Source: Candidatus Altimarinota bacterium
GTDB taxonomy: Bacteria; Patescibacteriota; Gracilibacteria; BD1-5; UBA2023
Length of the DNA: 64,000 nucleotides
Assembly (NCBI GenBank): GCA_043787675.1
Contig: JAYVUT010000003.1
Span: 2,418-66,417 of the forward strand
Direction: 5' to 3'
The notes beneath the pieces are model-generated. The model worked only from the letters and a program-made list of their open reading frames with translations, ran no database searches and had not been told where the DNA came from. The position numbers and the translations under genes were made by a program. Position 1 is the stretch's first letter; each line of letters starts with the position of its first letter. Shown here one piece after another: positions 1,138-60,211 of this stretch.

Positions 1138-1854
1138 CTATGCTGTGACTATTTCTTTTTCTTCATTTTTTTTGACAGCTATTCCTTGTTCTTTTTCGAG
1201 ATATTTCTTCATTTTTTCAGCATGCGAACGTTCTTCGAGATGTTTCTGATGTGTTGCCTCATCAGCTATCTCGAGTTCTGCGAAGTGCTCTTTTTGTCGT
1301 CTATGTTCATTCTCTGCAGCGATTGTATTTGCATCCTCAGCATCGATACCCTTGATCAAATCAGATACTTCCTCGATAGCATGACCTATATAGGTATTCG
1401 TATCATAGTATACTATCTCAGTTTCTTTTGTATCACTATTCGTCTCAAAGAGTCCTGATGAAGTTGTTTCAAGAGTATTTGCATCTACGAGAGATGATTG
1501 CATACTTGAGTCTGCCATATCAAATAATATTGATGTTTCAGCGATGCTCGCATCAGGTATAGCTATAGGAGTTATATCTTGTTGAGTTTGGATTGGTGTA
1601 GGTATTGCTATTTCTGGTACTGATTCATCGATGATAATCGAATCATCACTCTCAGTGATATTCATCGGTGTACCTGCCGGTACCTCGATGGGTGGTTGCA
1701 CGATATCTACTACTGATACCATCGGAGTTGCATCACTTATAATAATTGAATTTGCATTGATAAGTGGATCATCTTGTGAGGGATTACCTCATGTTTGTCC
1801 AGAGGATTGTGTTGTTGGAGCTGATTGCTTCAGGAGATCATCAAATAGTGACAT
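1138..1854 (-). CDS. Hypothetical acidic protein: N-terminus MSLFDDLL, disordered T/P/I/D/E-rich middle, C-terminal charged helix
   Basis: ATG at 1854, one in-frame TGA joins it to ORF 1138-1722, and there is a true TAG stop at 1138-1140. Its architecture parallels the gene at 11307-12251. Confidence 0.6.
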
Positions 1855-6520: not shown

Positions 6521-8125
6521 ATGCTTTTCTCTGACCTTGCACTCCGTGCAGAGATCGTCTCCGCTGTTGCCAAGCTCGGCTATACTGAGCCTACTGAGGT
6601 ACAGGCTGCTGTCATACCAGTTGCCCTCGAAAACAAAAATATCATCGTTCAGTCCAACACTGGATCTGGTAAGACTGCTGCGTTCGTCATACCAGCACTC
6701 AACCGTATCGATCCTCGTCTCCGCAAACCACAGATCCTCATCCTAGAGCCAACTCGTGAGCTCGCTATGCAGACTCGTGAGGAGGTCGTCAATATTTCTC
6801 GAGATATGCGTATGGGATCTCTCGCTGTATTCGGTGGATTCCCGATCCGTCGTCAGATTGAGCAGTTGCGTGATGGACCACAGGTTATCGTCGCGACTCC
6901 AGGTCGTCTCATGGATATGATCGAGCGTCGTGCCATCGACCTCTCTGCTATCTCTATGCTTGTCATCGACGAGGTAGATCAGATGATGGATATGGGATTT
7001 TCTCGAGCGGTTGTCGAGATCTGGGAACAGCTCCAGTCACTCGAGCAGGTGATGACATTCTCAGCAACATATACTCGAGAGATCACGAGTCTCATCGATG
7101 ATAATATGAAGGGCGGATATGAGTCTCTCATCCTATCCAAGACTCCTACTGTCGATACTATCGATCATGTATTCATGCGTGTTGGATCTCGTGACAAGTA
7201 CCCACTTCTCAAGCGTACACTCGAGAGATTCCCTGATCACAAGGTGATCATATTCACCGCTCGCAAACACGAGACCGAGGAACTCGAGAGATATCTCCAT
7301 CGTGACGGATTCTCCGCTGCATATATCAACGGAGATATGATGCAACGAGATCGAGTGCGTGCTATCGAGGCGTTCAAGGCTGGAAAAGTCCGAATATTTA
7401 TCGGTACGGATGTCGCATCTCGCGGACTCAATCTCAACAATATCGGACTCGTAGTCAACTATCATGTCCCACACGATCCAGAGGCATATATCCATCGTAT
7501 CGGTCGTACTGGTCGAGCAGGTGCAGATGGTCATGCGATCATGTTCGTTTCGTCTGAGGAGGCTCGTCAGCTCCAGCGTATCGAGCGTATGCATCGTATC
7601 GAGATCAACGAGGTCGATGCTGAGGGTGTAGTTATCCCTAGACAAAAGGATACTCGTCCACCTCGCTCTAGTAGTGGATCAGGAGGAGGATATAGAGGAA
7701 ATGGAGGCGGTGGAGGATACCGAGGTGGTGCGTCATCAGGTTCTGGAAGTGGATACCGTGGAGGATCGAGCTCTGGAGGATCAGGAGGTGGATATCGAGG
7801 TGGTGCGTCCGGATCTGGTGGATCAGGAGGATATGACGGCAAGAGTCGAGAGGGTGGATCAGGAGGAGGATACTCATCTCCTCGTCGTGATGACAATGGA
7901 GGAGGATATAGAGGTGGAGCGTCATCAGGTTCTGGAGGTGGATACCGTGGAGGATCGAGCTCTGGAGGATCAGGAGGTGGATCTGGATATCGTGGGTCTC
8001 AGTGAGGAGGTAACGGAGGTCACTCATTCGGTGATGCTCCGAGCTCATCTGGATATCGTGAGCCACGACCAACTCAACATCGTGGAGATGCTGGACATCA
8101 TGCACACTCACAGCGAGGTGAATAA
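6521..8125 (+). CDS. DEAD-box ATP-dependent RNA helicase with a Gly/Arg/Tyr/Ser-rich (RGG/YRGG) C-terminal tail
   Basis: Q motif TEPTEVQ, Walker A SNTGSGKTAAF, motif II VIDEVDQM, then SAT and HRIGRTGRAG. The ORF reads through TGA 8003-8005 to TAA 8123-8125. Confidence 0.93.
7676..7982 (+). repeat. In-frame tandem duplication inside the helicase tail
   Basis: The 72-nt segment 7722-7793 recurs at 7911-7982 with 2 mismatches, an offset of 189 nt. The sequence tggatcaggaggaggata also recurs at 7676 and 7856. Confidence 0.85.
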
Positions 8126-8326: not shown

Positions 8327-8344
8327 GGATTCAAAATTTGTAAA

Positions 8345-8375
8345 AACTCTCCTAAGTATTTGGGAGAGTTTTTTT
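8345..8375. terminator. Bidirectional terminator between tRNA-Lys and the convergent vWA gene
   Basis: Stem aactctcc / ggagagtt followed by a T-run. The reverse strand also ends in a T-run. Confidence 0.65.
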
Positions 8376-8390: not shown

Positions 8391-9401
8391 CTAGATCAAT
8401 CGATATCTCTGCATAATCCATCTCAGATATACTCTCTCTACGGTAAGCCATATCATAAATAGGATGAGGAGAAGTGGTGTGATATCACTTTGCTTTGTTT
8501 CAGTTTTTGACTCAGTAGTACTCGGGAGCTCGGATCTGATATCTGAGAATATCTGAGTGAGTCATATCTTGTCCTCTGCATGGAAATACTGACCTCCTGT
8601 TATATCTGCCAATTGTCTCATCATCGGCTCATCGAGATCACTCCTGAGATGTCCACCACTTCCATCTGAGAAGTATTGCTTGCTCCCCCAGCTGTCTGTA
8701 TATGAGAGCTCAGCTCCAGAGAGTGATCCGATACCTACTGGGAATATTTTGATTCACTTTTCTCGAGACTCAGTTGCCGATATGATGGGATCTATGCCGA
8801 TATTGGCTCGTCAGTCGGTGAGGAGTATGATAGATCTTGCTTGAGACTGCGATCCAGAGTATGTCATATTCGCGAGGAGGAGTGCATCTCCGATATTGGT
8901 TCCAGATAGTCATGGGAGATCCTGGCGGATGAGATCTGGATATAGTCCACTCACGATACTCGATATCCCAGCATAATCAGTCGAAAATGGAATCGAAACG
9001 AATGGCTTGCCTGCGAATATGATGAGTCCGACTCGATCATTTTTTCTCTCTGCTATAAAGTCTCGAACGACACTCTTGGCGACCGTGATCCGACTCGGTG
9101 ATATATCCTCAGCCAGCATCGAGAGTGAGATGTCGAATACGATCATGATATCTTGTGGAATCGGACGTAGAGTAGTAGTCGTATATGTCATATGGACTCC
9201 TGCTATGACATATACGATACTACTGATCATCAGTGTACGTATGAGCCATAGTATCCATATTTTTTTGGGTGTTCGCAGATGTTTGGCTATGAGTGCGTTC
9301 GGATGTATGGTTCCGATTTTTTCACGACCAAAAATATACCAACCGATCATAATAGCTGGTATGAGTGTGAGAATAAGGGGATGAGAGATAATGAGAGACA
9401 A
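8391..9401 (-). CDS. Membrane-anchored von Willebrand factor A (vWA) protein, BatA-like
   Basis: N-terminal TM segments, MIDAS motif VFDISLSM, vWA core GTNIGDAL...ILLTDG-RAN and a C-terminal TM PLLLILFMIWL. Probable TTG start at 9401, several in-frame TGA, TAG stop at 8391-8393. Confidence 0.85.
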
Positions 9402-9419
9402 AGAAATATATATGATGGT

Positions 9420-9836
9420 TTAGGAGAGTTTTGCCATGAGTTCTCTCTGTATCTGTTCTTTTTGTATGGTTGTGAGTTCGTCTCCGCCATATTCTACTTG
9501 GTCGAGCTCTCACATGATCTCTATGAGTCTCTTGTCTGTGCTATACTCAGCGATATGATCTGGTGTATGAGCCCAGCTATGGTGAGGTTGGTAGCTATAG
9601 GTGAGATATCTCCTGATCTCGAAGAGAGTCAACTCTGCATAGTTCTCTCTACCTGGATCGATAGGATGGTATCTATAGGGTTCTCGGTCCTCTATCTGAT
9701 TTACTCTCTCGGCTCTATATCTATACCAGAGTCAGAACCATACGAGTAGTCCGGTACCGAGTGCCATGAGCCATGATGCAGGATGTATATCTCAGATCCA
9801 CCATATAGGATCAACTGCAAAAAATAAATCTGTCAT
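9420..9836 (-). CDS. DUF4381-like single-pass membrane protein, the small protein usually found upstream of batA
   Basis: ATG 9836 and TAA 9420-9422. The N-terminus DPIWWI-G-DIHPASWLMALGTGLLVWF fits the DUF4381 pattern. It ends 18 nt upstream of the vWA gene. Confidence 0.65.
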
Positions 9837-9877
9837 ATAGACAGATTATATTAAAAATAAAAAGGATTTCAATATGA

Positions 9878-10363
9878 TTATTTGTATACCCATGGAGCGA
9901 GGAACAAGAGTATATATCGGAAGAAAAATAGTATAGCGAGACCGATGATGATATTGATTGCCCATTTTTTGAGACTACTCTTCGCCTTGATATCATCTCC
10001 TCAGGCAAATGACCATGCGATACCGAGTCCGACCACCGCGAGTACACCGAGGAGGAGTACGATATTGATGACGAATCGGATCAATTGTGCAAAAATAGAC
10101 TGGAATCCAGCAATTCATGTTGGGACACTACATTCGTATTTGCGTTGCGGTACAGGACCCGTACATGCTACACCACTTTCTCACTTGATATCAGAGTTTT
10201 TATTTCCGTTATCATCATTTGGAGTTGTAGGACTCATTACACATACACAATTTCCTCCAGGAACCATCTCTGATGTATATACTTTCTGATCTTCAGCATA
10301 TCCCGTATGCCATACGAGTCCAGATGAGATGAGAGCGAGTATGAGTATGATAAGTTTTTGCAT
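9878..10363 (-). CDS. Secreted Cys-containing protein ending in one T4SS-pilin-like (TrbC/VirB2-like) two-helix unit
   Basis: Signal peptide MQKLIILILALISSGLVWHTGYA. The C-terminal unit is VLLLGVLAVVGLGIAWSFA-G-GDDIKAKSSLKKWAINIIIGLAILFF. Three in-frame TGA; TAA stop at 9878-9880. Confidence 0.7.
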
Positions 10364-10368
10364 AGATT

Positions 10369-11265
10369 TTAGAGTTGGAATGTGACGATATCAGTCATGA
10401 AACTGAGTCCTGCGAGGAGTATGATGAGAGCGATACCCGTATTGATGAGTATAGATTTTCATTTTTTGATCCGCTCCTCGTCTCCTGCTGATGTGATAAA
10501 GAGATAAGCACCCCATATCAACATAAATATAGCGATCGGAGCCGCGATATACATCACGAGGGCAAATAGAGTACCACTCACACTTGGTATATATGATCTG
10601 AAGTCACCCATTGCTACCAGATTGCCCCAGAGCTGTACAAATCCGAGGAATATGAGTCCGATAATACCGTAAATAATACGATTTTTTGCTTGTTTCCTTT
10701 TCTCATCATCACCTCCTGATACGAGCAAGTTAAATAGTCCCCATGTGAACATAGTGACTGCTACACCAAACGCGAATACCCTGAGGAATGCTATCATATT
10801 CCCTATGATTCCCTCGAATCCTGCAGTATTCCAAAACACACTCGATCCAGTAGTATTCGACCAGTTATCAACTATAGATACTGATCCCGCATTGCTCGGC
10901 GCAAATATAGTATATACAAATCCTGGAATATTGAGAAAAAGAAAACCGATCAAGGCATAGGTGATCTGTTTGCGTTGGGTCTTGACAGCTTCTTCACTAT
11001 CTGATCCGAGGATCATATATACTCCGATCATCACGAGGTATATCAGGGCAAATCCAGATATCACAATCCGTATCACACCGAGCATACGTAGTCCGAGATT
11101 TTTTGCATTGGTGATAGAGTCTCATGATCCCTGATCGATCGCTATAGATGCCGATTGTATAGTAGCCTCTGATCATGATGGGAGTACTGCAGTACCATAG
11201 CTGAGTATGTAGCTACTCATGAATCACATCAGGAGTATGAGGATGGTGGTGAGTATTCGCGACAT
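10369..11265 (-). CDS. Polytopic membrane protein made of three tandem T4SS-pilin-like units
   Basis: ATG 11265 with a signal/TM N-terminus MSRILTTILILLM. The motif recurs three times: GSDSEEAVKTQRKQITYALIGFLFL, SGGDDEKRKQAKNRIIYGIIGLIFLGF and SAGDEERIKK-G-KSILINTGIALIILLAG, each between hydrophobic helices. TAA stop at 10369-10371. Confidence 0.75.
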
Positions 11266-11306
11266 AGGGCGTAGAGTTTAGGATTTTAGAATCATAGTAT
11301 ATCTTT

Positions 11307-12251
11307 CTATCTTTTTTTCAGAGATGCAAGTGTATCATCGATAGCTGCCTCATCATCTCGAATCCGTTGTATCTCTGTATCGATCGCTATCTCAGCATCT
11401 TCTATTGCTTTTTTTGCATCCTCGAGTCTCTTTTTTGCATCTTGTTTCTCTTGCAATAGTATCTCATCCGCTGCCTTGAGTCATCGGAGTTCATCCGCGA
11501 ATCCTCCGATTTTTTCTCCGAGAGATCCTGACATCGGTGATCGCATAGCTGGAGTTGGTACATCTACTGCTGTAGCAATAGGAGATATGATAGGCTCAGG
11601 AGCTACTATATCTGCACCAATATCGAGTATGGATACCTGTGGAGTCGATTGTGTGATATCGAGAAGAGATGTGACTGGCTCAGTTGGCATGGTGTCAAGA
11701 TTATTGGTATCTATTGATGGTGTTGGAGTGGGTATATCTGCTGCTATGGCTGGGATGCTACTCGCTGTGTCAGTAGTTACTGATATGTCTATCATCGGTG
11801 TCTCTACAACTTGCTCTGAGATGATCTCTATAGTATTCTCTCTTGCATCAGATACTACCACAGCATCTCATAGAGTGAGCCCTATGGTGCTCATATCTCC
11901 ACCGATATCTATCTCGGATTCAGTTTCTACTTCTATTTTTACTTCAGGTGTGATAGCTGCCTCTTTGAGAAGATTTGTAGTCTCTATTTCATCGTTTATA
12001 TTCTCTTCTTTTCCACCCGCATCTATATGTTTCTTTTCTTTTTTCTTTTTTTTATCATCTTTGCTATCTCCACTAGATACTCCACCACTACCGCCACTCA
12101 TACTATTTCAGATACCACTTCATTCACTCGATGATTCATCTATAGTACTCGATATATCTTTGGGACGTGCCATATTTTCTATAATCGTATCCATATCTGT
12201 AGCAGCTTCGCCATCATTGGCTGTTCCGATAATATTGTCAAAAAGTCCCAT
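11307..12251 (-). CDS. Hypothetical acidic protein: N-terminus MGLFDNIIG, poly-K patch, T/P/I/D-rich middle, C-terminal coiled coil
   Basis: ATG 12251 and TAG 11307-11309, with all fragments joined by TGA. The C-terminus LKAADEILLQEKQDAKKRLEDAKKAIEDAEIAIDTEIQRIRDDEAAIDD is protein-like. It is the first gene of the minus-strand pilin/vWA string. Confidence 0.6.
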
Positions 12252-12331
12252 ACACGCAAAGAAAATGAATAATTACTCAAACAATATAGCATAAAAGATA
12301 CTATATTGCAAAAATATCCAAGTGTTTTATT

Positions 12332-12392: not shown

Positions 12393-12734
12393 ATGCGATT
12401 TGTACTCAGATTCATAGGAACGGCTCTAGCCATATATGTCCTCATCCACTATGGATATCTCTCAGGGATTACTCTAGTATCTGGCAATATCTCTCTCCTG
12501 ATATTTGTTGGAGTGCTCTCACTCGTGAACCTCGTTCTATGAGGTGTACTCAGGCTCATCACATTTCCGATTCGGTGGCTCACTCTGGGTGTAGTTGGTT
12601 TTGCAATCTCACTATTTGTTGTATGGATCACAGCGAACTATGGATCCAATATCACAGGAACTCAGGTAGTGGGATATCTGCCTATTATTATCATAGCACT
12701 CGTTATGGGACTCGTCACGTCGATAGTTGGGTAA
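12393..12734 (+). CDS. Small 4-TM membrane protein resembling the phage-holin-4 (DUF360-like) superfamily
   Basis: 113 aa. The central LVL-G-GVLRLITFPIRWLTLGVVGF resembles the ...IRPIL..LTLPL..LTLGLF... core of that family. One TGA falls on a Gly-like position; TAA stop at 12732-12734. Confidence 0.7.
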
Positions 12735-15970: not shown

Positions 15971-18900
15971 TTATCTCGCTACTCGTAGTGTGATGATGGT
16001 ATCTTCATCGAGGGTTTCATTTTTCTCGATATCAGGTGTCTCTATATCTCAAAAAGTCGATAGAGTCTCAGAGGTGATCATATCACCAAATTGTGTTAGA
16101 ATCTCTTCACTTCCCTTTCCACTCATCGAGAGTGATATACGATCAGTGACACTATAGTCTGCTTCTTTTCGCATATCCTGGATGAGACGAATGATGTCAC
16201 GAGCATATCCCTCGAGCCGCAGTATATCAGTGATAGTAGTATCGAGTGCGACAACCATACCATATCCTCACACGACATCTCCTACTCACTCGAGTGGTAT
16301 ATACTCCATTGTGTACTCTCCAGGTTCCAGGATATATCCCCCGACATCTATGATACCATTCTCTTTTTCTACGAAGTTTCCATTTTTGGCTTCGGTGATG
16401 ACTTTTTGGACATCTTTTCCATACTTCGGACCGATCTTGCGGGCATCTGGCTTGCAGATTTTTTTGGCGAGGTTTTCTGGATTCTCATATCGGACTTCTT
16501 TGACATTGAGCTCGTCACGGATGATAGCTTGATAATACGCGGAGAGTTCGCGAGTGATCGTGACCGATGCGAGTGGTTGTCTCACACGGATATTTTTCTG
16601 TGAGCGGAGTGCGAGTCCGAGTGAGACGATCTGCTCACATATCTGCATATCACGATTGAGATCATTTGCAACAAGGTACTTATTAGGACGAGTGATATAC
16701 TCGAGATGGACAGATTCTCTTCCTGTGAGACCCTGGAAGATATTCTCAGAGAGAAATGGCATGAGCGGAGCCAGGAGCTTCGATACCTCTGTGAGAACCG
16801 TATAGAGTGTTTCGTAGGCTGATTTTTTGTCTGGAGTCATTCATGATTCCCAGAATCTGCGTCGTGAGAGACGAACATACCAATTGGTGAGCTCATCCAT
16901 ATACTCAGTGATGGCACGACATCCACGAGAGATATCGTATCATTCCATAGCATCATGAACCTGTCCGATGAGAACCTGTAGTTTCGAGAGGATCCAGCTA
17001 TCGAGAGGATTGACTATCTGAGTCGTCATGAGACGGAATGGATCAGCATTGAGAATACTCGTATTATAATATGCTTGTTCCATATCCATTCCCATGTATT
17101 TGTGGAGTATTGGACGAGGTGTACCAGCATGAGCCACGATCAATATTCGTTTTCCAGCATATTTCGTGAAGATTTCTTCGTATGTTTTGATGATTCTACT
17201 TTCGAATTGCTCGATATTTTCTACTGAGTTATTTTTGTAGAGTTTTCTGAGTTCTACATGTGAAGTATCCTTAGGCAGATTTCCCATCTCAGCAATCTCT
17301 GTGAGTGTTTTGTTTGCATATTCTCCTGCCGTCTGTTCTGCGAATCCATCCTCTATGATATACTCCCCAGAGAATCATATCTCTTCCCCTATGATACGAG
17401 CGGTATCATAGGTACGGATACGATCTGTATGGATAATTACGTCAAAATTCTTTCCCTGATCTCGGAGTGTTTTTCCTGCATTTTTTGCCTGTTCTCTTCC
17501 CTTCTCTGTGATATGTGGATTATCACTTCCATCACTCATCTTGGATTCTACATTCGATGTGCTCTCTGCATGACGAGAGAACCATACCTCGGTAGTATCT
17601 GATTCCCACTTATCGATATTCGCATACGTCGTGAAGAATGAATAGGTATTCCATATTGGGAGCATTACTCACTTGATCGTTTCCATAATTCCTTCTTCTT
17701 TGAAGTCCATATCTCCCCCAGAGAGGAGTGGCGAATTGAGCATATAAAAACGAATCGGATCAGCACCGTATTTCTCTATCGCCATACGAGGATCTGGATA
17801 GTTCCCGAATGATTTGCTCATCTTGCGTCCATCATTACCATTGACTACTCCAGTAGTTATCACATTCCTGAAGCTCGGAGTTGGTTTCTCTTGTCCAGTA
17901 GGATTGAGGAGTACTCCGAGAACATGCATCACATAGAACCAGGCACGGAGTTGCCCAACATATTCCGCGATGAAGTCTGCAGGAAAACTGGCTTGCATCG
18001 CTTCACGGTTCTCGAATGGATAGTGCATCTGAGCATATGGCATAGATCCTGAATCCATCCATACATCGAGAACCTCAGGTATACGGGTAAGGGTATTTCC
18101 AGTTGTTGGTGACTTGAGCTTGATAGCATCGATATACGGCTTGTGGAGATTGAATTCTGTGCCATCATATTCTCCTCATTTGAAGAAATATGTAGTCTTT
18201 CCATCTATTTCTCATTTTTCAAGCTGATCAAAAGACTGATTATACTGAAATATCTCATCCCGTGATGATACTACCAACTGTTCTTTGCTATCTTCTGATA
18301 TCCATACTGGCATCGGAGCTCCCCAATAGCGAGTTCGAGAGATACACCAGTCTGGAGCGGTTTCGATTCCTTTTTTGAATCTTCATTCTTTGAGGTATTC
18401 TGGGAACCAATTGATCTGTTCATTGGCTTCGACGAGTTTATCTTTTTGACTCTGGATATCGATGAACCATGAGTCCTGAGCCTTTTGCATGAGAGGAGTT
18501 CCAGATCTAGGACAAAATGGGACACGATGCGTTATTCCCTCCAGTTTGAAGAGTGTATTATTTGCCTTCATACGCTCGATATTGATCCGATTCACTCACT
18601 TCTCAGGATTCTCGAGATCGAGGTAGTGTACTCATTCCATATTAGAAATTTCAGCCGTATATCTTCCAGCCTCATCCATGGCCTCTGAGATGAATATTCC
18701 TTCTTTTTTCGCAAGTTGGAAATCCACTTCACCGAACTCTGGAGCCTCATGTCCGATACCCGTACCATCAGTATCCGTGATGAAGTCCGCATGGTAGATC
18801 TTATGATTTTTCTCGCCATTTTTCTGATAATAATACTCTGGAAATGGTGGAATATATCCGAGTCAGACGAGTTCAGATCCCTTGAACTCACGGATAACGG

Positions 18901-19822
18901 TGTATTCTCATTTTCCCTTGAATACCGTCTCTAGACGATTTTTTGCTACTATAAAATTAGAATTAATATAGGTTCTTTCTACATAAGTTCCGTCATCTTT
19001 TATACGAGGTGCAAATTCAGGATTGAGGGATATTTTTCAGTCATTTTGAGCTTCTAAATATGTTACCAATACATATTCGATATCATTCCTCACCGCGAGT
19101 GCCATATTCGCAGGAATAGTCCATGGAGTAGTTGTCCAGGCGAGGATTTCTGTTCATTCTGCAAATATAGAATTAGACTCTAATTTGAACTTCACTGTAA
19201 TAGCTGGATCATTGACCTCCTGATACGTATCATCCATAGCCACTTCAAAATTGGAAATCGGAGTACCCAGTTTCCAAGAGTAGAGTGATACACGTTTTCC
19301 CTTGTAGATGAGTCATTTTTTCCAGAGCTCAGAGAATACCCACATCACAGACTCCATATAGTCCTGATCCATGGTGCGATATGCATTGTCCATATCTACC
19401 CAACGACCGATCTTGTCAATATACCAATTCCACTCTGATGATACATCACGAGTATAGTTGTAGCATTCATCGATGAAGTTTTTTACTCCATTTTCTTCGA
19501 TTTCTTTGTTGGATTTGAGTCCGAGTTTTTTCTGAACCTTCTCTTCGATCGGGAGACCATGACAATCCCATCCCCACGTACGGTCAACACGACGTCCTTG
19601 CATCGTCCAATATCGCCCTACGACATCCTTCACAATAGATGAGAGGAGTGATCCGTAGTGAGGCATACCCGTGATGAATGGAGGTCCATCATAGAATCTA
19701 TATGGATTATCCTCTGGACGAGAATCTACAGATTTTTGGAAAGTATTATTTGCTTTCCAGTATGCGAGTACCTCTGATTCGAGAGCTGGAAATGATTGTT
19801 TTGGGGAGACTGATGGAAACAT
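15971..19822 (-). CDS. ileS: Isoleucyl-tRNA synthetase (type 2) carrying an inserted histidine-phosphatase-like domain
   Basis: ATG 19822 ([23 protein letters not shown]), [11 protein letters not shown] (HIGH region) and KMSKS. ORFs 19313-19975, 18383-18595, 17669-18058, 17375-17665, 16940-17287, 16286-16840 and 16049-16258 are all in one frame, joined by TGA. TAA stop at 15971-15973. The product is 1283 aa. Confidence 0.95.
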
Positions 19823-20015
19823 AGTAAAAAAAGCACACAAAATAAAATTGCGTGCTTTTGGCTCTCTTTCGAGAGAGGTACCACCGAAAGCGTATACTTG
19901 ATTATATATTTTTTGACGGAGCATTTCAGCTTCGGGTTGTTCTAATCGGTTTTTATACCTTTCTTCAGCCAGCATTGCGGATGATAGCCGCTCGATTGCT
20001 TTTGACTACTTTTTT
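19823..20015 (-). promoter_or_regulatory. T-box leader (Ile specifier) with competing antiterminator and terminator, upstream of ileS
   Basis: On the minus strand: hairpin GCGG-CUAUCAU-CCGC presents AUC (19983-19985), and the T-box core is GGUGGUACC (19877-19885). Helix GCUUU...AAAGC encloses the hairpin CUCUCU-CGAA-AGAGAG and would form the antiterminator. Its 3' strand overlaps the terminator AAAAGCACGCA-loop-UGUGUGCUUUUUUU (19826-19860). Confidence 0.7.
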
Positions 20016-22508: not shown

Positions 22509-25500
22509 CTATTTCACTTTTCTCAGCTTTCTCTCTCTGAGTTTTCGCTTGATCTTGTTCAGCAGTCACTCGTGTTCTGCTACATAGATCTCATAGTAGA
22601 TCCCTTTCACGACGAAGAGCGTGAGAAAAGATGCAGCGATAATACCGAATATAATGGTGAATCCCATACCTGCCCAGAATCGATCCCGTAGTGCAATCGG
22701 GAGGATACCGAGAACAGTCGTGACGGTCGTGAGTGTCATAGGCTCGAGACGGGAGGCTCCTGCTTCGATGAGTCAGTTGATACCTCACATACCTTTTTGG
22801 AGATTCTGATTGATCGCATCGATGAGGATGATACCATGATTGACAGCGATCCCGGTAAACGCTATGAATCCTATACCAAACGGCATGGAGAATTGGTTCC
22901 CAGTGAGGAGGAGCCCAATCATGACAAATGGTAGTGACATCACGACTGAGTAGAGGATGATTGCTGGTTGCGAAAAGCTATTGAACTGCAGAGTGAGGAT
23001 CGAGAATATCACCATCACGGCTATAAAGAATGCTGATACTACTGCGACGATGAGTTCATTATTGGCATCATTTTCTCCTCCTGCCTTGTACGAGATTCAT
23101 ACTGGGAACTTGTAGCTCTTTGCGTAGTCGACAAACACTCATTGACTCGATACGCTATCTATTCATTTTTCGAGGTCTGCTTCCACCGCTATCTGGACTT
23201 TTCCATTTTCTCGGTTGACGGATGCGATGGCATTTTGAGTTTTCGTATCTATGAAGTTGCCGACTGTATAGGTTGTCGGTCATACGGTGAATGGTATCGA
23301 GAGGATATCCTCCATACGAGATTCTTTTTGGAAAGTATCATTTTTGAGAACGACATTCATATCTTCACCATTATCTTCGATACTACCCACTATGACACCA
23401 TTCATACTCGTTGTGATTGCTTGATAGATCACAGATGATGGTACACCGTAGAGTGCGAGGAGATCCTTGCGAAGTGAGAAGACAAATTGTCCAGGAGTAT
23501 CTTGAGATGATACCGTGACATTCTTGGTACCTGGAATAGTTTTGAGATATTCTCGGAATTCTTTTGCTACTTTGATCAGTGTTGGGAGTTCACTGGCTTC
23601 GTTGGATATGATTTTGAGTCCGACTGCTTTGGACGACGGAGGTCATCCAGCGACTACTTTGCTCGTGACCTTGAGTCACTTGGATTCGAGTTTCGAGAGA
23701 CTCGCGAGCCAGATTTTTTCGAGATCGAACACACTTTTTTCTCCTCGTTTTTTTCGTATTTCTTTTTTGGTGAGCTCTATAGATATATTCATCTGATTCC
23801 CGGCAATTGACGTAGATACGTAGCGGATCTCGTTGTATCATTTGAAATATGGTGCAATATCTCCGACGAGCGCACTCATGACCTCAGTACGCACTCCGAC
23901 TGGACCCTCGATGACAAATGTAGTGAGATTGTTATCATCACTTGGGAAGAGCTCGAATCCAACAAGTGGTGCGAGAAATATGAACGATAGGATAAAAAGT
24001 CCAAATGGAATAACGATAGCAAGTCGTCTGAGATACGTATGTTCGAGAAAGTTACGCAATACTCGCTTGTACCACTCGATACAATTATGGATGATTCGAG
24101 TACGCAGTGATGCTTCGCTACTTTGGAGTTTGATTTTTCATACTCGTTCGAGTGACAGGAGCTCATGTTCATCTGGTGTCGCATATTCTAGAGTTGTATC
24201 GCTCTCGACATAGGTTTTTGATTTTCTCACAAACAAGAGATAGAGGGCACTATTGACCGTGAGTGCGAGTACGAGTCCTGAGGCGAGCACACCAAATATA
24301 GTGATCGGAATATAGGCGAGAAACTTGCCGAGAATACCAGGGAGGAACATCATCGGTATGAATACGACGATCGTCACAGAGACTCATGAGATGATCGGAA
24401 CAGAGTACTCACGCAGAGCGAGCATGATAGCCGTACGAGGATCATATCCCGTACGCAGTCTCGCACTTGCTCATTGTACGATCACGATGATCGTATCGAC
24501 CGCTATACCAAACGAGAGAATCAGTGAAAAATTGGTGAGAAAATTGAGCGTGAAACCAAAATAATACAGGAGCATAAATGTCGCGAGAAACGCCAGAGGC
24601 AGAGTCAAGCTCGCAAAGAGTGAGTCACGGAATCCAACAAATATATACATCGCTATAAATACGAGTACCAGAGTCGTGATAGCCTCACGAGTGAGCTCAC
24701 CATAGTCATCTCGGATATTGTCCGCGAGATCAGAGGTATAGAGATACCTGAGTCCAGTGAACTCACTGGTAGCAAATACTTGTTCGATTTCTTTTTTGGC
24801 AGCATCACTCGCTGTGAATATATTTGCTGAGTCATTTTTGTTGATAGTCAGACCGATATATGGAGCACTCTCTCAGCCCGATCCCATGATAACACGGTTT
24901 TCATTGGTATTCTTGTACTTGCGTTCTATTTTTGCGATATCTCCGAGTCGGATCTGTGAACCACCGGGGAGCGTGATAGCAGTATCAAGAAAGTCTATCG
25001 ATTTTCTATTTTTTCACTCGATTCGGTAATCATATTTTTTATCACCGAGAGAATAGTTCCCTATCGGTTGATCGAGATTGGCTGATCGTATAGTGCTCGC
25101 GATACTCGAGAGTGTGAGTCCGAGTGATGCGAGCTTGTCACTTGGGATGATGATCTGAGCATCATAGGTGGTTTCGTTGCCACCACCAGCAGATACGGCT
25201 GAGGTATTCGCACTTGCAGAGAGATCGACACTCTCTATTCAGGAGATGAGCTTGACCTTGTTTTGTAGCTCTATAGCTCTTGCCACGAGTACAGATCTCG
25301 ATGCTTTGTCACTCGGATCATAGATAAATACCGAAAATGCTCGTCCTGTGTCTGTTTTGATCTCTGTGATCACTGGTGTCTTGGCATCAGCAGGCAGTAT
25401 GACACTTCCTACTTTGTTGCGGATATCATCGAGGACATCTTTGACTTTTGCACTTGTTTTGACATTGACCGTCACACTGGATATACCGAGTGCAGATCTC

Positions 25501-25781
25501 GTCGTGATCTTATCGACTCACTTGATATCTTTGATCTGCTTGTATATCTTATCCGTGATGAGGGAGTCCATATCTTCAGGATTGGTTCCTGGATAGATAG
25601 TAGATATAGATACGATACCGAGATTGATTGATGGAGATGACTCCTTGGGTATAGCAAATGCAGCGAGGAGTCCCATGATGATCACGAGGAGGACGATGAG
25701 GTATGAGATACGATACTTGCGTACCCAGAATCCGAGAAATCCTGATTCGATATGAGATTGCAATTCTGACAGACGAGACAT
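22509..25781 (-). CDS. RND efflux transporter (AcrB/AcrD/AcrF family inner-membrane pump)
   Basis: ATG 25781. The 1090-aa ORF is assembled from fragments 25518-25790, 25239-25475, 24138-24377, 23838-24059 and 22785-23018 (same frame, joined by TGA). Typical TM/porter alternation with a C-terminal AGASRLEPMTLTTVTTVLGILP. TAG stop at 22509-22511. Confidence 0.93.
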
Positions 25782-25809
25782 ATATGACAATGAATTATGA
25801 ATTATTTCT

Positions 25810-27666
25810 TTATTCTCCCGTTCCAGTTTTTATCTGAGGAGATGGTATTGCGATTTTTTTCTTCTCGATTGTTTGTTTGGTAGCATCATAGTTGCTCATA
25901 TCTGTGATGATGACTTGTGATCCGACGGTGAGTGGAGAGAGTATCTCCATAGTATCTCCAGAAGTCTGCCCTATGGCGACAGTTTGTCTGATAATACCTG
26001 TACTGGTATAGATCGAGATCTCACCTTCTCACTCGGCGATGATCGCGACCGCATCGAGAGGGAGAGTGATGCTTGCCTTGTCTCATTCTCTGTATGTAGG
26101 GGCAAATATCACCGTAGCACTCTCACCGAGATATGGTCCACCATCTGCGATGGCTATACGGATAGTTGAGAGGAGATTGGCATTGGCGACGGTCGAGAGA
26201 GCAGTGATGATACCCGTCAGAGACTTGCCTGACACGAGTACTCCTACACTATCCCCGACTCATAGAGATGCGACCAGTGATGGTGCGACATCGATGATAA
26301 TCTGTGGTTGTTTTCCAGTAAAATCAGCTATCTGCGATCCTATATTGACGGAGAGCCCAACACTCGCGATCACTCTAGAGATAACTCCATCGACTGGAGC
26401 GGTGACTCTGAGTTTGCTCGCATCTCGCTCTGCTTGCTGGAGTGCGATTTTTGCATTTTCTCTATTGGCATCGAGTTGTACGAGAGTTGCTCACTTGAGT
26501 GCCTGAGCCGTATCATAGGATTTTTTGGCTTGTTCAAAATTGAGCCGAGCATTTTCGATCTTATCCTTGAGATCGATTCGAGCATTCTCATAGGTTATAT
26601 GGATATCATTATTGCTATTTATGAGAGTATTCTCATCTGCCGTGAGAGGTCTTGTCAAGCTCGCGAGTGCGAGTCGATTCGCAGTTTCTGTATTTTTGTA
26701 TCACTTAAAAAATGTCAGCGTCCCAGCTCTCCAGCCATTGTATCCTCACTCAGATCATTGTATAGTGGCTCTCTGTCCATTCCATGCTGCAACCCATCCA
26801 GAGAGGAGTTCCTGTGGGAGTCCACCTCCGACGACACTATTTTGGAGCATATAGAGCATCGCATCGGCGAGCTTGCGTGATTGATCATAGCTCTTGGATA
26901 TGGTATCAAAATCTGCAATAGGGTCAGTGAGATTGATTGTCTTGGATTTCTCGATCTTGGCTCTGAGATCTCATCGGATAGAGTAGGTAGTATTCCACTC
27001 ATTGTTGGCGAGAGCTCGTGAGTCACCGACTCGAGTTCCGAGATATGGTTCCCAGGCGTCATTCGCATATTCGAAATTGGTCGTGATACCGAGGATCTTG
27101 TCTGCCTCATAGAGCATCGATGTCATGATACGCTCAGCATCTGATAGGTAGGTTTTGTAGCTCTCATTGTACGCGTCGAGAGTTTTTGAATTCGTATTTA
27201 CCAGTGTATCATAGCTGAGTGCATTTTTGCCTGTGAGTGTATCGTAGGCCTGACGAGACCTCTCATAGTTGATACGAGCTGCATCGACGGATTGTATGAG
27301 ATTGATACGAGTAGTTTCGATACTTGCATTCTGTACCTTGATAGTATTGACCGCTTGCGAATACCTGAGATCGTAGTTATTTTGAGTATCTTTGAGTGTT
27401 GCTATGACAGTACCAGCTTTGACAGATTGTCACTCTCGGACATTGATCTTCGAGATCTCTCAGGCTCATTGGGCCGTGAGTGTGAGAGATGAGCTCGCAG
27501 TGATACGCCCAGTTTTCTCGATAGTCACACCTGTCTGAGTTTGTCCGATAGTATATGTCTCTATGACAAACGGAGTTTTGCTCGCTGGAGCAACACTGAG
27601 TATGGTAGATCCACAACTCGAGAGTACGAGAGTAGATGAGAGCAATATGGCGATGAGTGGCTTCAT
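25810..27666 (-). CDS. Efflux periplasmic adaptor (HlyD/MFP family) lipoprotein with a very long coiled-coil hairpin
   Basis: ATG 27666 and lipobox LVLSSC. First lipoyl half ISKINVRE-G-QSVKAGTVIATL; second half LRVTAPVDGVISRV lies about 330 aa later. No TAA/TAG in frame until 25810-25812, giving 618 aa. Confidence 0.85.
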
Positions 27667-27752
27667 GGTAGCAGGTATTAGAAATTTAGAATCGGGAACA
27701 CCTCTATATTGTATAGAGGGATTATCATCGTAGGATGAGGGTCATATTGGTA

Positions 27753-27998
27753 TTATTTTTCTATATTGCATTCGGCCTTGAGGAGATCGATGAAGTCACC
27801 CATATCCTCAGCCTTGATGAATCCGACGAATTTGCCATATTTGGTCATAGACATGAGAGTATCTCACTCGACTATACCGAGCATATCGCGGACATCCTTG
27901 GGTATGACGATCTGTCATTTTGTACCGACAGTAACTGATCCGTGCATCTTGACACCGACTACAGCCTTTACTGGTACATCTTTTTTGGATCCGAACAT
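27753..27998 (-). CDS. AbrB/MazE/SpoVT-family DNA-binding protein, first gene of the efflux operon
   Basis: ATG 27998 and TAA 27753-27755. The SpoVT-AbrB core is [25 protein letters not shown], and TGA at 27915-27917 falls on the conserved G of GQ(I/V)xIP. Confidence 0.8.
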
Positions 27999-32100: not shown

Positions 32101-32345
32101 TCTACTGGTACTATGATACCATCGATGTTGAGTATGAAGTCATCACCCCTATCACCATCATCACCACGAGTTGCTTCATATCTATAGGTATGAGATATCT
32201 TGGCATTTCCAGGAGAGAGGGAGAATATATCACTCTCGAGGATATCTTTCGAGAATCACTGAGTGCCATCTCCGATTTCTTTTCCACGATAGAATTCTCT
32301 ATTTTTTTGATACTTTTCGATGAGTTTTTGGATCGATATAGGCAT
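29106..32345 (-). CDS. Single-polypeptide type IIG-like restriction-modification enzyme / gamma-class N6-adenine DNA methyltransferase (Eco57I-like) with an N-terminal HsdR_N/PD-(D/E)xK-like domain and a C-terminal specificity domain
   Basis: ATG 32345. One frame contains no TAA/TAG down to TAA 29106-29108, giving 1079 aa. It fuses ORFs 31479-31790, 31035-31301, 30402-30959, 29523-29762 and 29106-29462. Motif X VFTPPDIVEYM, motif I IIDPACGSGTFL and motif IV FDFVVGNPPYV are present. The N-terminal DDFILNIDGIIVPVEVEMY...YGILTDGWTWRFY resembles HsdR_N. Confidence 0.85.
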
Positions 32346-60075: not shown

Positions 60076-60211
60076 AGAGATGATGACAAAAAGAGACTAA
60101 AAACTGATATCCAGTATATGAAAATGAGTATATAAATCAATACAAGACGAAAAGTTTGTATTTTTTGCGACTATTGGATATACTTTTTATGTATTTTATT
60201 ATTGTTTGATT

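What the first reader, a model, noticed from the sequence alone, without database searches (positions are those of the whole stretch)
8391..12251. Candidate cell-surface module: T4SS-pilin-like proteins fused into an operon with DUF4381 and a BatA-type vWA protein
Five co-directional minus-strand genes have gaps of 5-41 nt and terminators only at the two ends.
- The M-G-LFD acidic coiled-coil protein (11307-12251).
- A six-helix protein made of three pilin-like units (10369-11265).
- A signal-peptide, Cys-containing protein ending in one pilin-like unit (9878-10363).
- A DUF4381-like single-pass protein (9420-9836).
- A TM-anchored vWA/MIDAS protein (8391-9401).
In classical Bat operons, DUF4381 and BatA follow a MoxR ATPase and a DUF58 protein. 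Here those are replaced by pilin-like genes, and no VirB4/VirB6-type partner is nearby. This combination is not a described system as far as I know. It could be an adhesion or appendage module relevant to an epibiotic lifestyle. That functional idea is inference only.
Basis: partly seen in the sequence, partly recalled or inferred. Interest (0 to 1): 0.7.

Follow-up and report, generated by a model that had tools for sequence, protein, structure and literature searches.

The report
Gracilibacteria pilin-like plus vWA membrane cluster
Five real, co-directional genes encode a probable cell-membrane complex: a protein made of three fused conjugation-pilin-like units, a second pilin-like protein, a small one-pass protein, a metal-dependent "sticky" vWA protein and an acidic coiled-coil protein; the arrangement is conserved in one clade of tiny UGA-recoded Gracilibacteria, I found no paper describing it, and its function is still inferred.

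Summary
All five minus-strand genes exist at the stated coordinates once UGA is read as Gly, with gaps of 41, 5, 41 and 18 nt.

**Assignments**
- g2 holds three T4SS_pilin (PF18895) hairpins at 88 bits, well above threshold.
- g3 is a signal-peptide, 4-Cys protein ending in one VirB2-like hairpin. It is below threshold here, but orthologues pass.
- g5 has BatA-type architecture: two TM helices, an external vWA domain with an invariant MIDAS motif, then a C-terminal TM helix.
- g4 as DUF4381 is not demonstrated. The window protein has no Pfam hit, the best relative scores 19.5 bits against a cut-off of 27.2, and profile comparison fails its controls.

**Conservation**
- The cluster is conserved in one Gracilibacteria clade of 32 loci despite changing flanks.
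- The constant core is g2 plus g4. g1 (N-terminal MGLFDN motif) usually precedes it.
- g3 and g5 are frequent but dispensable. g5 is adjacent in 25 of 32 loci and inverted in 7.
- Sister clades carry PilT–g2–g3 instead.
- A paralogous triple pilin sits beside a coupling-protein-like ATPase elsewhere in a relative's genome.
- I found no MoxR, DUF58, VirB4 or VirB6 gene among the window's ORFs.

**Best reading:** an ATPase-less membrane complex that displays a MIDAS vWA domain. Adhesion is inference only. I class it as a new variant of known parts, of moderate interest.

The parts
11307..12251 (-). g1: 314-aa acidic protein with no TM helix. It has a conserved N-terminal MGLFDN motif, a central (F/I)DIGGD motif, a variable S/T/P/D/E-rich middle and a C-terminal coiled coil. 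It is lineage-specific.
   Evidence: Translation. Family alignment with M1, L3, F4, D5, G117 and G118 invariant. It lies immediately upstream of g2 in most clade-I loci. No Pfam or PDB sequence match. Only 9 homologues in 5.8 billion proteins.
10369..11265 (-). g2: 298-aa membrane protein. A signal-like N-terminal helix is followed by three tandem VirB2-type (T4SS_pilin) helical hairpins, each with a cytoplasmic (S/A)GGD(D/E)E..K loop.
   Evidence: Pfam PF18895 at 88.3 bits in 3 stretches (cut-off 26.6); NCBIfam NF045849 at 53.8 bits (cut-off 40). The AF2 model of an 89%-identical orthologue shows an N-terminal helix plus three hairpins (pLDDT 64.6). Hydropathy and charge give 7 hydrophobic segments. 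The three units align with each other. 128 homologues, nearly all about 300 aa.
9878..10363 (-). g3: 161-aa protein with a signal peptide, an ectodomain with 4 Cys (conserved PG..C.C ... R.Y.C motif), one VirB2-like hairpin and a C-terminal APW(V/I)Y.
   Evidence: Pfam TrbC 23.8 bits (cut-off 27.9) and T4SS_pilin 15.9 bits for the window copy. Orthologues score 34.9 and 26.2 bits for T4SS_pilin. An orthologue has precomputed PF18895 and PF04956 hits. Family sequences.
9420..9836 (-). g4: 138-aa single-pass protein. It has a short acidic N-terminus with a D/GLFF..PIWW motif (predicted outside), one TM helix, a basic stretch, and a small helical cytoplasmic domain of four short helices with invariant His, Tyr and Glu. 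It resembles DUF4381 in architecture only.
   Evidence: AF2 model of an orthologue, pLDDT 86.9. Family of only 44 clusters in 1.84 billion representatives. Alignment. No Pfam hit at E<=1. hhalign with controls. It always lies next to g2.
8391..9401 (-). g5: 336-aa BatA-architecture protein. Order: TM1, basic cytoplasmic loop, TM2, extracytoplasmic vWA domain with an intact MIDAS motif (DxSxS...T...D), TM3, basic tail.
   Evidence: Pfam VWA_2 70.4 bits and VWA 57.7 bits; BatA N-terminal domain only 13 bits (cut-off 25.9). NCBIfam BatA_Lepto 122 bits, far below its 380 cut-off. MIDAS residues are invariant in 25 distinct orthologues, and topology follows from hydropathy and charge. Full-length (96%) match at 28% identity to the BatA gene of a classical Bat operon.
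12283..12312 (-). Promoter-like site upstream of g1, in the 141-nt gap between the start of g1 and the start of the + strand neighbour.
   Evidence: TTGCAA-17-TATATT, 9 of 12 with an extended TG. This is a consensus match only.
9845..9872 (-). Internal promoter-like site in the g3-g4 gap.
   Evidence: TTGAAA-16-TATAAT, 11 of 12, the best match in the region. It fits g4-g5 behaving as a separable sub-unit in relatives. Not tested.
9827..9847 (-). Stable hairpin whose loop holds the g4 start codon, followed by a U-run that also encodes the conserved LFF.
   Evidence: z -4.0. Its role as attenuator or translational control is unknown.
8333..8373 (-). Intrinsic-terminator-like hairpin and U-tract just after the g5 stop codon.
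   Evidence: 11-bp stem, dG -17.3 kcal/mol, z -3.66, none of 200 shuffles as stable.

Best explanation
This is a lineage-specific envelope gene cluster of one UGA=Gly Gracilibacteria clade. It most likely encodes a single cytoplasmic-membrane complex without its own ATPase.

**Proposed layout**
- The constant core is g2 plus g4. g2 is three VirB2/T4SS-pilin hairpins fused into one polypeptide. g4 is a small N-out single-pass protein with a cytoplasmic helical domain.
- g1, an acidic cytoplasmic protein (MGLFDN motif, FDIGGD motif, coiled coil), usually precedes the core and probably docks on its cytoplasmic face.
- g3 and g5 are frequent accessories. g3 is a Cys-rich, Sec-exported single-hairpin VirB2-like protein. 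g5 is a BatA-architecture protein held by three TM helices.
- g5 exposes a vWA domain with an invariant MIDAS site outside the membrane. There it would bind an acidic ligand through a bound metal ion. The ligand could be a host-cell surface component or a partner protein.
- The hairpins of g2 and g3 would form the membrane-embedded platform, possibly a short stub rather than a long pilus.

**Shown:** gene structure, domain identities, predicted topologies, MIDAS conservation, conserved linkage, and no ATPase found nearby.

**Inferred:** physical complex formation, surface display and the adhesion role.
For: - Gene models and recoding.
- g2 is three PF18895 hairpins. The g3 family lies in the same superfamily.
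- g5 has a vWA domain, an invariant MIDAS motif and an outside-facing topology.
- Linkage holds in 32 clade-I loci whose flanking genes differ.
- g4 follows g2 or g2-g3 on the same strand in 30 of 32 loci. Even the most divergent g4 relatives follow a g2 gene.
- g5 lies within 6 kb in 25 of 32 loci.
- g1 lies directly upstream of g2 across the clade.
- GC content of the cluster (0.421) equals the window (0.423), so it is native rather than recently acquired.
- No ATPase lies in the cluster or within about 8 kb of it. The only large P-loop ATPase I recognised elsewhere in the window is housekeeping FtsK.
- Precedent exists for vWA modules as pilus-borne adhesins in monoderms (PMC8179133). A VWA membrane protein was proposed as an attachment factor in Vampirococcus (PMC8080830).
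- VirB2-like pilin arrays are essential in an epibiotic Saccharibacterium (PMC10633639).
Against: - There is no direct evidence that the five proteins interact.
- g5 and g3 are dispensable in parts of the clade. g5 is absent despite enough flank in L004, L031, L039 and L041, and inverted in 7 loci. g3 is missing in about 11 loci. The five-gene unit is therefore not obligate.
- An internal promoter-like site and hairpin before g4 suggest two transcription units.
- The function of BatA-type proteins is unknown even in model bacteria.
- The g2 model has low confidence (pLDDT 64.6) and has no significant structural match.
- Three hairpins fused in one chain may not be able to polymerise as a pilin does.
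Confidence: 0.4

Rival explanations
1. These are two unrelated modules that are neighbours by descent. g2 and g3, possibly with g1, would supply pilin or membrane parts to the dispersed T4SS encoded elsewhere in Gracilibacteria. g4 and g5 would be a stripped-down Bat-type envelope stress module (DUF4381-like plus BatA) working on its own.
For: - g4-g5 moves as a pair away from g2-g3 in L026 and L036, and g5 is inverted in 7 loci.
- An internal promoter-like site lies before g4.
- g5's best plasmid relatives are BatA genes, and g4 occupies the DUF4381 position with a similar architecture.
- T4SS parts are reported to be dispersed in Gracilibacteria (10.1101/2025.01.22.634366).
Against: - g4 stays directly behind g2 in 30 of 32 loci, including loci where g5 is gone. 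It behaves as a partner of g2, not of BatA.
- Homology of g4 to DUF4381 is not demonstrated.
- No MoxR, DUF58, BatB, BatC or BatD gene lies nearby.
- The neighbourhood persists although the flanking genes change.
Confidence: 0.25
2. It is a true extracellular VirB2-type filament. g3, perhaps with g2, polymerises into a pilus. g5 acts as its base or tip adhesin. Energy comes from an ATPase encoded elsewhere, such as a PilT-type or coupling-protein/VirB4-type enzyme.
For: - Sister clades place a T2SSE/PilT ATPase (168.8 bits) directly upstream of g2-g3.
- A paralogous triple pilin sits next to a T4SS-DNA_transf/DUF87 ATPase in a close relative.
- CPR pilin arrays are proposed to build pili (PMC12857230).
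- vWA adhesins on pili are well known (PMC8179133).
Against: - No ATPase, VirB6 or VirB5 was found in the cluster or the window.
- g5 is pinned to the membrane by TM helices at both ends, which does not suit a tip adhesin.
- A covalent three-hairpin chain is unprecedented as a pilus subunit.
- g3 is absent in about a third of the clade.
Confidence: 0.15
3. g2 is not a pilin in function. It is a polytopic platform or channel built from VirB2 repeats that stands in for the VirB6 missing from Gracilibacteria. The cluster would then be one piece of a dispersed T4SS-like translocon, with g1 as a cytoplasmic adaptor or substrate.
For: - VirB6 homologues are reported absent in Gracilibacteria (10.1101/2025.01.22.634366).
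- g2 has seven hydrophobic helices, comparable to a VirB6-type polytopic protein.
- The paralogue is adjacent to a coupling-protein-like ATPase.
- The nominal top Foldseek hit is TrwI/VirB6, but it is not significant (E 0.09, TM 0.14).
Against: - The structural match is meaningless at that score.
- This copy has no ATPase beside it.
- No substrate or relaxase is evident.
Confidence: 0.1

Closest known systems
Bat (Bacteroides aerotolerance) / MoxR-vWA operons: MoxR - DUF58 - DUF4381 - BatA - BatB - BatC(TPR) - BatD
   Same: g5 has the full BatA layout: two N-terminal TM helices, a vWA domain with MIDAS, and a C-terminal TM helix. Its best plasmid matches are BatA genes of such operons (28% identity over 96% of its length). 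A small N-out single-pass gene (g4) sits directly upstream of it, where DUF4381 sits.
   Different: No MoxR ATPase, DUF58, BatB, BatC or BatD was found in the cluster or the window. g4 does not reach DUF4381 thresholds, and the profile signal fails controls. g4 is linked more tightly to the pilin-like g2 than to g5.
VirB2-like pilin arrays of Patescibacteria T4SS (for example Southlakia epibionticum SEML1_0006-0019; PF18895/PF04956 genes near virB4)
   Same: g2, g3 and a further gene at 60206-60601 belong to the same pilin families. Several divergent pilin-like genes lie side by side, as in the described arrays (10.1101/2025.01.22.634366; PMC10633639; PMC12857230).
   Different: Here three hairpins are fused in one chain. 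There is no VirB4, VirB3, VirB6 or VirB8 nearby. The partners are a vWA protein, a small single-pass protein and an acidic coiled-coil protein, none of which appears in those papers.
vWA-bearing pilus adhesins (Streptococcus sanguinis PilB modular type IV pilin; also PilY1, TadG and sortase-pilus tip adhesins, the last four from my own knowledge)
   Same: A MIDAS vWA module is genetically coupled to pilin-type proteins in a monoderm, with adhesion as the plausible role (PMC8179133).
   Different: The vWA domain here is not fused to a pilin. It is anchored by TM helices at both ends. The pilin-like proteins are VirB2-type, not type IV (N-methyl) pilins; no N_methyl match was listed.
Archaeal Ced/Ted DNA-import systems (polytopic CedA plus small VirB2-like CedA1/TedC) - recalled from my own knowledge, not tested
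   Same: A polytopic membrane protein is paired with a small VirB2-like hairpin protein outside a classical conjugation locus.
   Different: Those systems include a VirB4/HerA-type ATPase (CedB), and CedA is not built of pilin repeats. No sequence or structure comparison was made here.

Membership tests
T4SS_pilin / TrbC-VirB2 (PF18895, PF04956) | Profile HMM score above the curated cut-off | tested here: met
   g2: PF18895 88.3 bits against 26.6, in 3 stretches; NF045849 53.8 against 40. The window g3 is below cut-off (TrbC 23.8 against 27.9; PF18895 15.9), but g3 orthologues score 34.9 and 26.2 against 26.6.
T4SS_pilin / TrbC-VirB2 (PF18895, PF04956) | Two-helix hydrophobic hairpin with a short charged cytoplasmic loop, preceded by a signal sequence | tested here: met
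   Hydropathy and charge, the AF2 secondary structure and the unit alignment with the shared GGD(D/E)E..K loop. Signal-peptide cleavage itself was not predicted with a dedicated tool.
T4SS_pilin / TrbC-VirB2 (PF18895, PF04956) | Encoded with T4SS assembly machinery (VirB4, VirB6 and others) | tested here: not met
   No such gene was found in the 64-kb window or within 8-10 kb in orthologous loci. A paralogue in a relative does sit next to a T4SS-DNA_transf/DUF87 ATPase.
T4SS_pilin / TrbC-VirB2 (PF18895, PF04956) | Polymerises into an extracellular pilus | not testable with these tools
   Needs microscopy or biochemistry.
Bat operon (MoxR-DUF58-DUF4381-BatA-BatB-BatC-BatD) | MoxR AAA+ ATPase and DUF58 genes immediately upstream | tested here: not met
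   Reference operons show them. Here the upstream genes are g3, g2 and g1, and no MoxR or DUF58 was found among the window's ORFs. The rest of the genome could not be checked.
Bat operon (MoxR-DUF58-DUF4381-BatA-BatB-BatC-BatD) | BatA-type protein: BatA N-terminal TM domain, vWA domain, C-terminal TM helix | tested here: inconclusive
   The architecture and vWA domain are met and there is a 96%-coverage match to a BatA gene. But the PF07584 BatA domain scores only 13 bits against 25.9, and NCBIfam BatA scores 122 bits against 380.
Bat operon (MoxR-DUF58-DUF4381-BatA-BatB-BatC-BatD) | Second vWA protein (BatB), TPR protein (BatC) and BatD downstream | tested here: not met
   g5 is followed by a terminator and tRNA-Lys. 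Only one vWA gene is seen in the orthologous loci.
DUF4381 (PF14316) | Profile HMM score above the gathering cut-off (27.2 bits) | tested here: not met
   The window g4 has no hit at E<=1. Among 26 family members, 2 give weak hits, the best being P0130 at 19.5 bits, E 0.0013.
DUF4381 (PF14316) | Profile-profile similarity to bona fide DUF4381 proteins beyond the TM segment | tested here: inconclusive
   hhalign gives probability 61%, P 8e-5 over 91 columns. Reversing both alignments gives P 2e-4, and the cytoplasmic domains alone give P 0.37. The signal is therefore architectural or compositional.
DUF4381 (PF14316) | N-out single-pass topology with a W-rich motif before the TM helix, a small helical C-terminal domain, and a position just upstream of a BatA-type gene | tested here: met
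   AF2 model, family alignment, and comparison with six DUF4381 sequences from Bat operons. g4 is directly upstream of g5 in 18 loci.
vWA / MIDAS domain | vWA HMM above cut-off and an intact DxSxS...T...D metal site | tested here: met
   VWA_2 70.4 bits against 27 and VWA 57.7 against 23.8. D, S, S, T and D are invariant in 25 distinct orthologues.
Known anti-phage defence systems (PADLOC) | Any component model hit | tested here: not met
   No hit for any of the five proteins at E<=0.01.

The most novel reading that the evidence does not exclude
The cluster encodes a previously unrecognised kind of CPR surface organelle. A covalently fused tri-VirB2 protein would form a membrane platform or stub in these Gracilibacteria, for which VirB6 homologues are reported absent. 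It would be organised from the cytoplasm by g1 and g4, decorated with a Cys-rich VirB2-like subunit, and carry a membrane-tethered MIDAS vWA adhesin for host contact. It would be assembled either without a dedicated ATPase or by a PilT-type or coupling-protein-type ATPase acting in trans.
Probability: 0.15. Interest if true: 0.8.

Novelty: new variant of a known kind. Interest (0 to 1): 0.55.

Why it matters
Gracilibacteria and other CPR bacteria are ultrasmall, and the few that have been cultivated grow attached to host cells. How they attach to and exploit hosts is a central open question. VirB2-like pilins are essential in the one CPR species tested genetically, yet their role is unknown.

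This cluster gives a clade-wide, testable candidate in which pilin-fold membrane proteins are coupled to an outward-facing metal-dependent binding domain rather than to a secretion ATPase. It also shows that the pilin fold has been fused into a polytopic protein with at least three alternative genomic partners: the g1/g4/vWA set, PilT, or a coupling-protein-like ATPase. That bears on how the dispersed T4SS of Gracilibacteria, in which VirB6 is reported absent, is built.

The oral GN02 lineage carries g2-g3-g4-g5, so the module is present in the human microbiome.

Tried and rejected
- I pasted table-25 translations and used database orthologues instead.
- **Foldseek.** The g2 model gave nothing significant against the PDB (best E 0.09, TM 0.14-0.25). 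The confident g4 model gave nothing either (best E 3.7).
- **g1.** No Pfam family beyond chance coiled-coil hits, no PDB sequence relative, and only 9 close homologues.
- **DUF4381 homology of g4.** I pursued this with Pfam scans of 26 family members, hhalign against six genuine DUF4381 proteins, and reversed-sequence and domain-split controls. It is rejected as unproven.
- **Other libraries.** PADLOC gave no hits. IMG/VR viral contigs held no relative of g2. Rfam found only the tRNA.
- **Context of the most divergent g4 relatives.** The contigs were very short, but they still showed g2 immediately upstream.
- **Recent horizontal acquisition** is rejected because the GC content matches the window.
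- **Gene-calling artefact** is rejected because all five proteins have conserved orthologues.

Full report
**Observation**

The window uses a genetic code in which UGA is a sense codon. ORFs of 100 aa or more sum to 14,182 aa under table 11 and 50,747 aa under table 25. In alignments of orthologues, positions that database entries translated as W across a UGA are Gly in sequences with ordinary codons. An example is the KK[W/G/A]K column. This fits table 25 and Gracilibacteria.

| Gene | Coordinates | Length |
|---|---|---|
| g1 | 11307-12251 | 314 aa |
| g2 | 10369-11265 | 298 aa |
| g3 | 9878-10363 | 161 aa |
| g4 | 9420-9836 | 138 aa |
| g5 | 8391-9401 | 336 aa, TTG start |

Each has 3-4 in-frame UGA codons. 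The gaps are 41, 5, 41 and 18 nt.

The cluster is bounded downstream by a strong hairpin plus U-tract (dG -17.3 kcal/mol, z -3.7) and then tRNA-Lys on the other strand. Upstream lies a 141-nt gap with a promoter-like site, then a + strand gene at 12393-12734 that I call holin_4_2-like. That call rests on the same-sized syntenic gene in L001; the window copy was not scanned.

The g3-g4 gap holds the best promoter-like match of the region (TTGAAA-16-TATAAT, 11 of 12). It also holds a stable hairpin whose loop contains the g4 start codon (z -4.0). Two transcription units are therefore possible.

**What the five proteins are**

- **g2** matches Pfam T4SS_pilin (PF18895) three times, at 88.3 bits against a cut-off of 26.6. 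It also matches NCBIfam's Mbov_0395 pilin-like conjugal transfer family (53.8 against 40).
  - An AlphaFold2 model of an 89%-identical orthologue (pLDDT 64.6) shows an N-terminal helix followed by three helical hairpins.
  - The three units align with each other, with the hairpin of g3, and with a separate small pilin gene. They share a (S/A)GGD(D/E)E..K loop between the two hydrophobic helices.
  - Charge distribution puts these loops in the cytoplasm and the inter-hairpin linkers outside.
- **g3** has a signal-like N-terminus and a variable ectodomain with four Cys in a conserved PG..C.C ... R.Y.C motif. It ends in one such hairpin and APW(V/I)Y. The window copy is just below threshold (TrbC 23.8 against 27.9). 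Orthologues reach 34.9 and 26.2 bits on T4SS_pilin, and one carries precomputed PF18895 and PF04956 hits.
- **g5** is a vWA protein (VWA_2 70.4 bits, VWA 57.7 bits).
  - It has two N-terminal TM helices separated by a basic loop, a 240-residue vWA region, a third TM helix and a basic tail. By the positive-inside rule the vWA domain faces outwards.
  - The MIDAS residues (DxSxS, T, D) are invariant in 25 distinct orthologues.
  - Its best matches among 72,556 plasmids are the BatA genes of classical MoxR-DUF58-(DUF4381)-BatA-BatB-BatD operons. The top match has 28% identity over 96% of its length.
  - It does not reach the curated cut-offs of the BatA models.
- **g1** is strongly acidic (64 D+E against 29 K+R) and has no hydrophobic segment.
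  - Across relatives it keeps an N-terminal MGLFDN(I/L) motif, a central (F/I)DIGGD motif and a C-terminal coiled coil. The middle is long, variable and rich in S, T, P, D and E.
  - It has no Pfam or PDB sequence relative and only nine close homologues in 5.8 billion proteins.

**g4 and the DUF4381 question**

g4 belongs to a small family. There are 8 hits in the indexed search. A full profile search of 1.84 billion representatives found 44 clusters, all about 135-150 aa.

A confident model (pLDDT 86.9) shows a TM helix followed by a small helical domain of four short helices. No PDB fold matches it. The N-terminus is acidic, carries a (D/G)LFF..PIWW motif and is followed after the TM helix by basic residues, so it is N-out. 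His, Tyr and Glu are invariant in the cytoplasmic domain.

The window protein has no DUF4381 hit at E<=1. Among 26 family members DUF4381 is the commonest weak hit, but only 2 members match. The best is P0130 at 19.5 bits against a cut-off of 27.2.

I built an alignment of six genuine DUF4381 proteins taken from Bat operons. hhalign against it gives probability 61% and P 8e-5. Reversing both alignments gives nearly the same score (P 2e-4), and the cytoplasmic domains alone give P 0.37. The resemblance therefore lies in architecture and position. Homology is not shown.

**Surroundings**

Within 8 kb on either side lie ordinary genes:

- On one side: DnaE, a DEAD-box helicase and tRNA-Lys.
- On the other side: the holin_4_2-like gene, a GDYXXLXY protein, a DUF2157 protein, a metallo-beta-lactamase-fold protein and IleRS.

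These assignments come from precomputed Pfam hits on syntenic orthologues and from my own translations.

The rest of the window holds the following (several identified by reading only):

- An RND pump with its adaptor, and an Eco57I-type restriction-modification enzyme.
- FtsK, YchF, LepA, RelA/SpoT, PheT and GyrB.

I found no MoxR, DUF58, VirB4, VirB6 or VirD4. The cluster's GC content (0.421) equals that of the window (0.423), so there is no sign of recent acquisition.

**Conservation**

I scanned one genome per GTDB species with an alignment of g2. It found 196 relatives, of which 79 loci were kept. I mapped all five families onto six-frame table-25 ORFs with iterated local HMMs and built a neighbour-joining tree of g2. 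Four groups appear.

| Group | Context of the g2-type gene | Notes |
|---|---|---|
| Clade I (32 loci, includes the window) | g1, g2, g3, g4, g5 in varying combinations | Details below |
| Clade II | T2SSE/PilT-type ATPase (168.8 bits) directly upstream of g2-g3 | No g1, g4 or g5 |
| Clade III | Two tandem g2 genes plus a small pilin | |
| Paralogue clade (24-28% identity) | Single triple-pilin gene | Present in the same genomes as clade I |

In the closest relative's genome, the paralogue is followed by an 814-aa ATPase. That ATPase matches T4SS-DNA_transf (32.8 bits) and DUF87 (35.3 bits).

Within clade I:

- g4 is always present. In 30 loci it follows g2 directly, or follows g2-g3, on the same strand. 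In two loci (L026, L036) a g4-g5 pair lies 1.5-2.7 kb away on the other strand.
- g5 is within 6 kb in 25 of 32 loci. It is co-directional right after g4 in 18 and convergent in 7.
- g5 is absent despite adequate flank in L004, L031, L039 and L041.
- g3 is missing in about 11 loci.
- g1, recognised by its MGLFD motif, precedes g2 almost everywhere. The exceptions are the subgroup that includes the oral GN02 genomes (L006, L007, L042-L045) and two further loci (L024, L028).
- Flanking genes differ between these loci, so general collinearity does not explain the linkage.
- Even the most divergent g4 relatives, on short contigs, lie immediately after a g2 gene.

The stable core is thus g2 plus g4, usually with g1. 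g3 and the vWA protein are common accessories.

**Comparison with known systems**

*Bat operons.* g5 has BatA architecture and a small single-pass gene lies before it. Every other defining part is absent nearby: MoxR, DUF58, BatB, BatC and BatD. g4 follows g2 rather than g5 when the two are separated. The view that pilin genes "replaced" MoxR and DUF58 in a Bat operon is not supported.

*Patescibacterial T4SS.* Recent work reports the following (10.1101/2025.01.22.634366; PMC10633639; PMC12857230):

- VirB2-like pilins (PF04956, PF18895) occur in arrays of 2-11 genes, mostly near virB4.
- These pilins are essential in Southlakia epibionticum.
- T4SS parts are dispersed in Gracilibacteria, and VirB6 is absent there.

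None of these papers mentions fused multi-hairpin pilins or a vWA/BatA partner. Literature searches for such a link found nothing.

*vWA adhesins.* The Streptococcus sanguinis PilB pilin carries a vWA adhesion module (PMC8179133). A VWA membrane protein was listed as a likely attachment factor in Vampirococcus (PMC8080830). These show what the module could work like, not what it is.

**Mechanism**

I consider one membrane complex the most likely reading (confidence about 0.4). In it:

- The hairpins of g2 and g3 form a membrane platform or stub.
- g4 and the acidic coiled-coil g1 sit at its cytoplasmic face.
- g5 holds a MIDAS vWA domain just outside the membrane for metal-dependent binding of a host or partner ligand.
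- No ATPase is dedicated to it.

The domain identities, predicted topologies, MIDAS conservation and linkage are shown. Assembly into one complex, surface display and adhesion are inferred.

The main rival (0.25) is that g2-g3 serve the dispersed T4SS while g4-g5 is an independent Bat-like envelope module. The internal promoter-like site, the mobility of g5 and its dispensability favour this rival. The fidelity of the g2-g4 pairing argues against it.

A true pilus powered in trans (0.15) is suggested by the PilT and coupling-protein contexts in relatives. It fits poorly with a vWA protein tethered at both ends and with a covalent three-hairpin subunit.

A VirB6-substitute role for g2 (0.1) is attractive because VirB6 is reported missing in this lineage. 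It rests on no significant structural evidence.

**Verdict**

The parts are known families: VirB2-type pilin fold, vWA/BatA-type protein, and lineage-specific small proteins. The conserved combination, the triple-hairpin fusion and its alternative partners are not described in the literature I could search. I rate it a new variant of a known kind, of moderate interest.

**Limits**

- The MAGs could not be scanned genome-wide for MoxR, DUF58 or VirB4.
- No multimer prediction was possible.
- Topology comes from hydropathy and charge rules, not from dedicated predictors.
- Promoter and terminator calls are pattern matches only.
- The tree is a simple neighbour-joining tree.

Noticed in passing
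window 60206-60601 (+): This is a further stand-alone pilin gene: 131 aa, a signal peptide plus one hairpin. It passes the Pfam T4SS_pilin cut-off (33.2 bits against 26.6). It lies between PheT and GyrB, far from any secretion gene.
   Followed up: partly
window 1138-1854 (-): A 238-aa acidic protein starts MSLFDDLL and ends in a coiled coil. The design matches g1 (22% identity in alignment A5) and there is no Pfam hit. It may be a paralogue of g1. It lies next to the sigma-70 gene.
   Followed up: partly
L077 7176-10881 (JACMPW010000004.1, same MAG as the closest relative of the window): A paralogous triple-pilin gene (24-28% identity to g2) is followed by an 814-aa ATPase. The ATPase matches T4SS-DNA_transf and DUF87, so it is coupling-protein-like. 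The same single-paralogue arrangement recurs in L074-L094.
   Followed up: partly
L046-L063, for example L056 6794-9663: In a sister clade the g2-g3 pair lies directly downstream of a roughly 355-aa T2SSE/PilT-type ATPase (168.8 bits). None of g1, g4 or g5 is present. This suggests a link between VirB2-fold proteins and a type IV pilus-type motor.
   Followed up: partly
L073, L083, L092, L095 (Peregrinibacteria and others): Two tandem triple-pilin genes are followed by a giant 1,490-1,630-aa protein that also matches the pilin HMM (scores 80-87).
   Followed up: no
window 15971-19975 (-): The isoleucyl-tRNA synthetase (1,334 aa) carries an inserted histidine-phosphatase (His_Phos_1) domain. 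This is seen in the precomputed Pfam hits on orthologues and as an SRHAEST motif in the window protein.
   Followed up: partly
window 6521-8125 (+): The DEAD-box helicase has a C-terminal tail of about 170 aa made of Gly/Ser/Arg/Tyr repeats (GGGYRGG...). Its GC content is 0.513 against 0.423 for the window.
   Followed up: no
window 9822-9880 (-): An 8-bp hairpin encloses the g4 AUG in its loop and is followed by a U-run that also encodes the conserved LFF. The strongest sigma-70-like match of the region lies just upstream. This could be translational control or attenuation between g3 and g4.
   Followed up: partly
window 22509-27918 (-) and 29106-32345 (-): The first stretch encodes an RND (AcrB-family, 426 bits) transporter with a HlyD-like adaptor, an unusual find in a monoderm CPR genome. 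The second encodes a 1,079-aa Eco57I/MmeI-type restriction-modification enzyme.
   Followed up: no
L006 5965-7076 (-): In one clade-I relative a type IV pilin-like (N_methyl) gene lies immediately upstream of g2 on the opposite strand.
   Followed up: no
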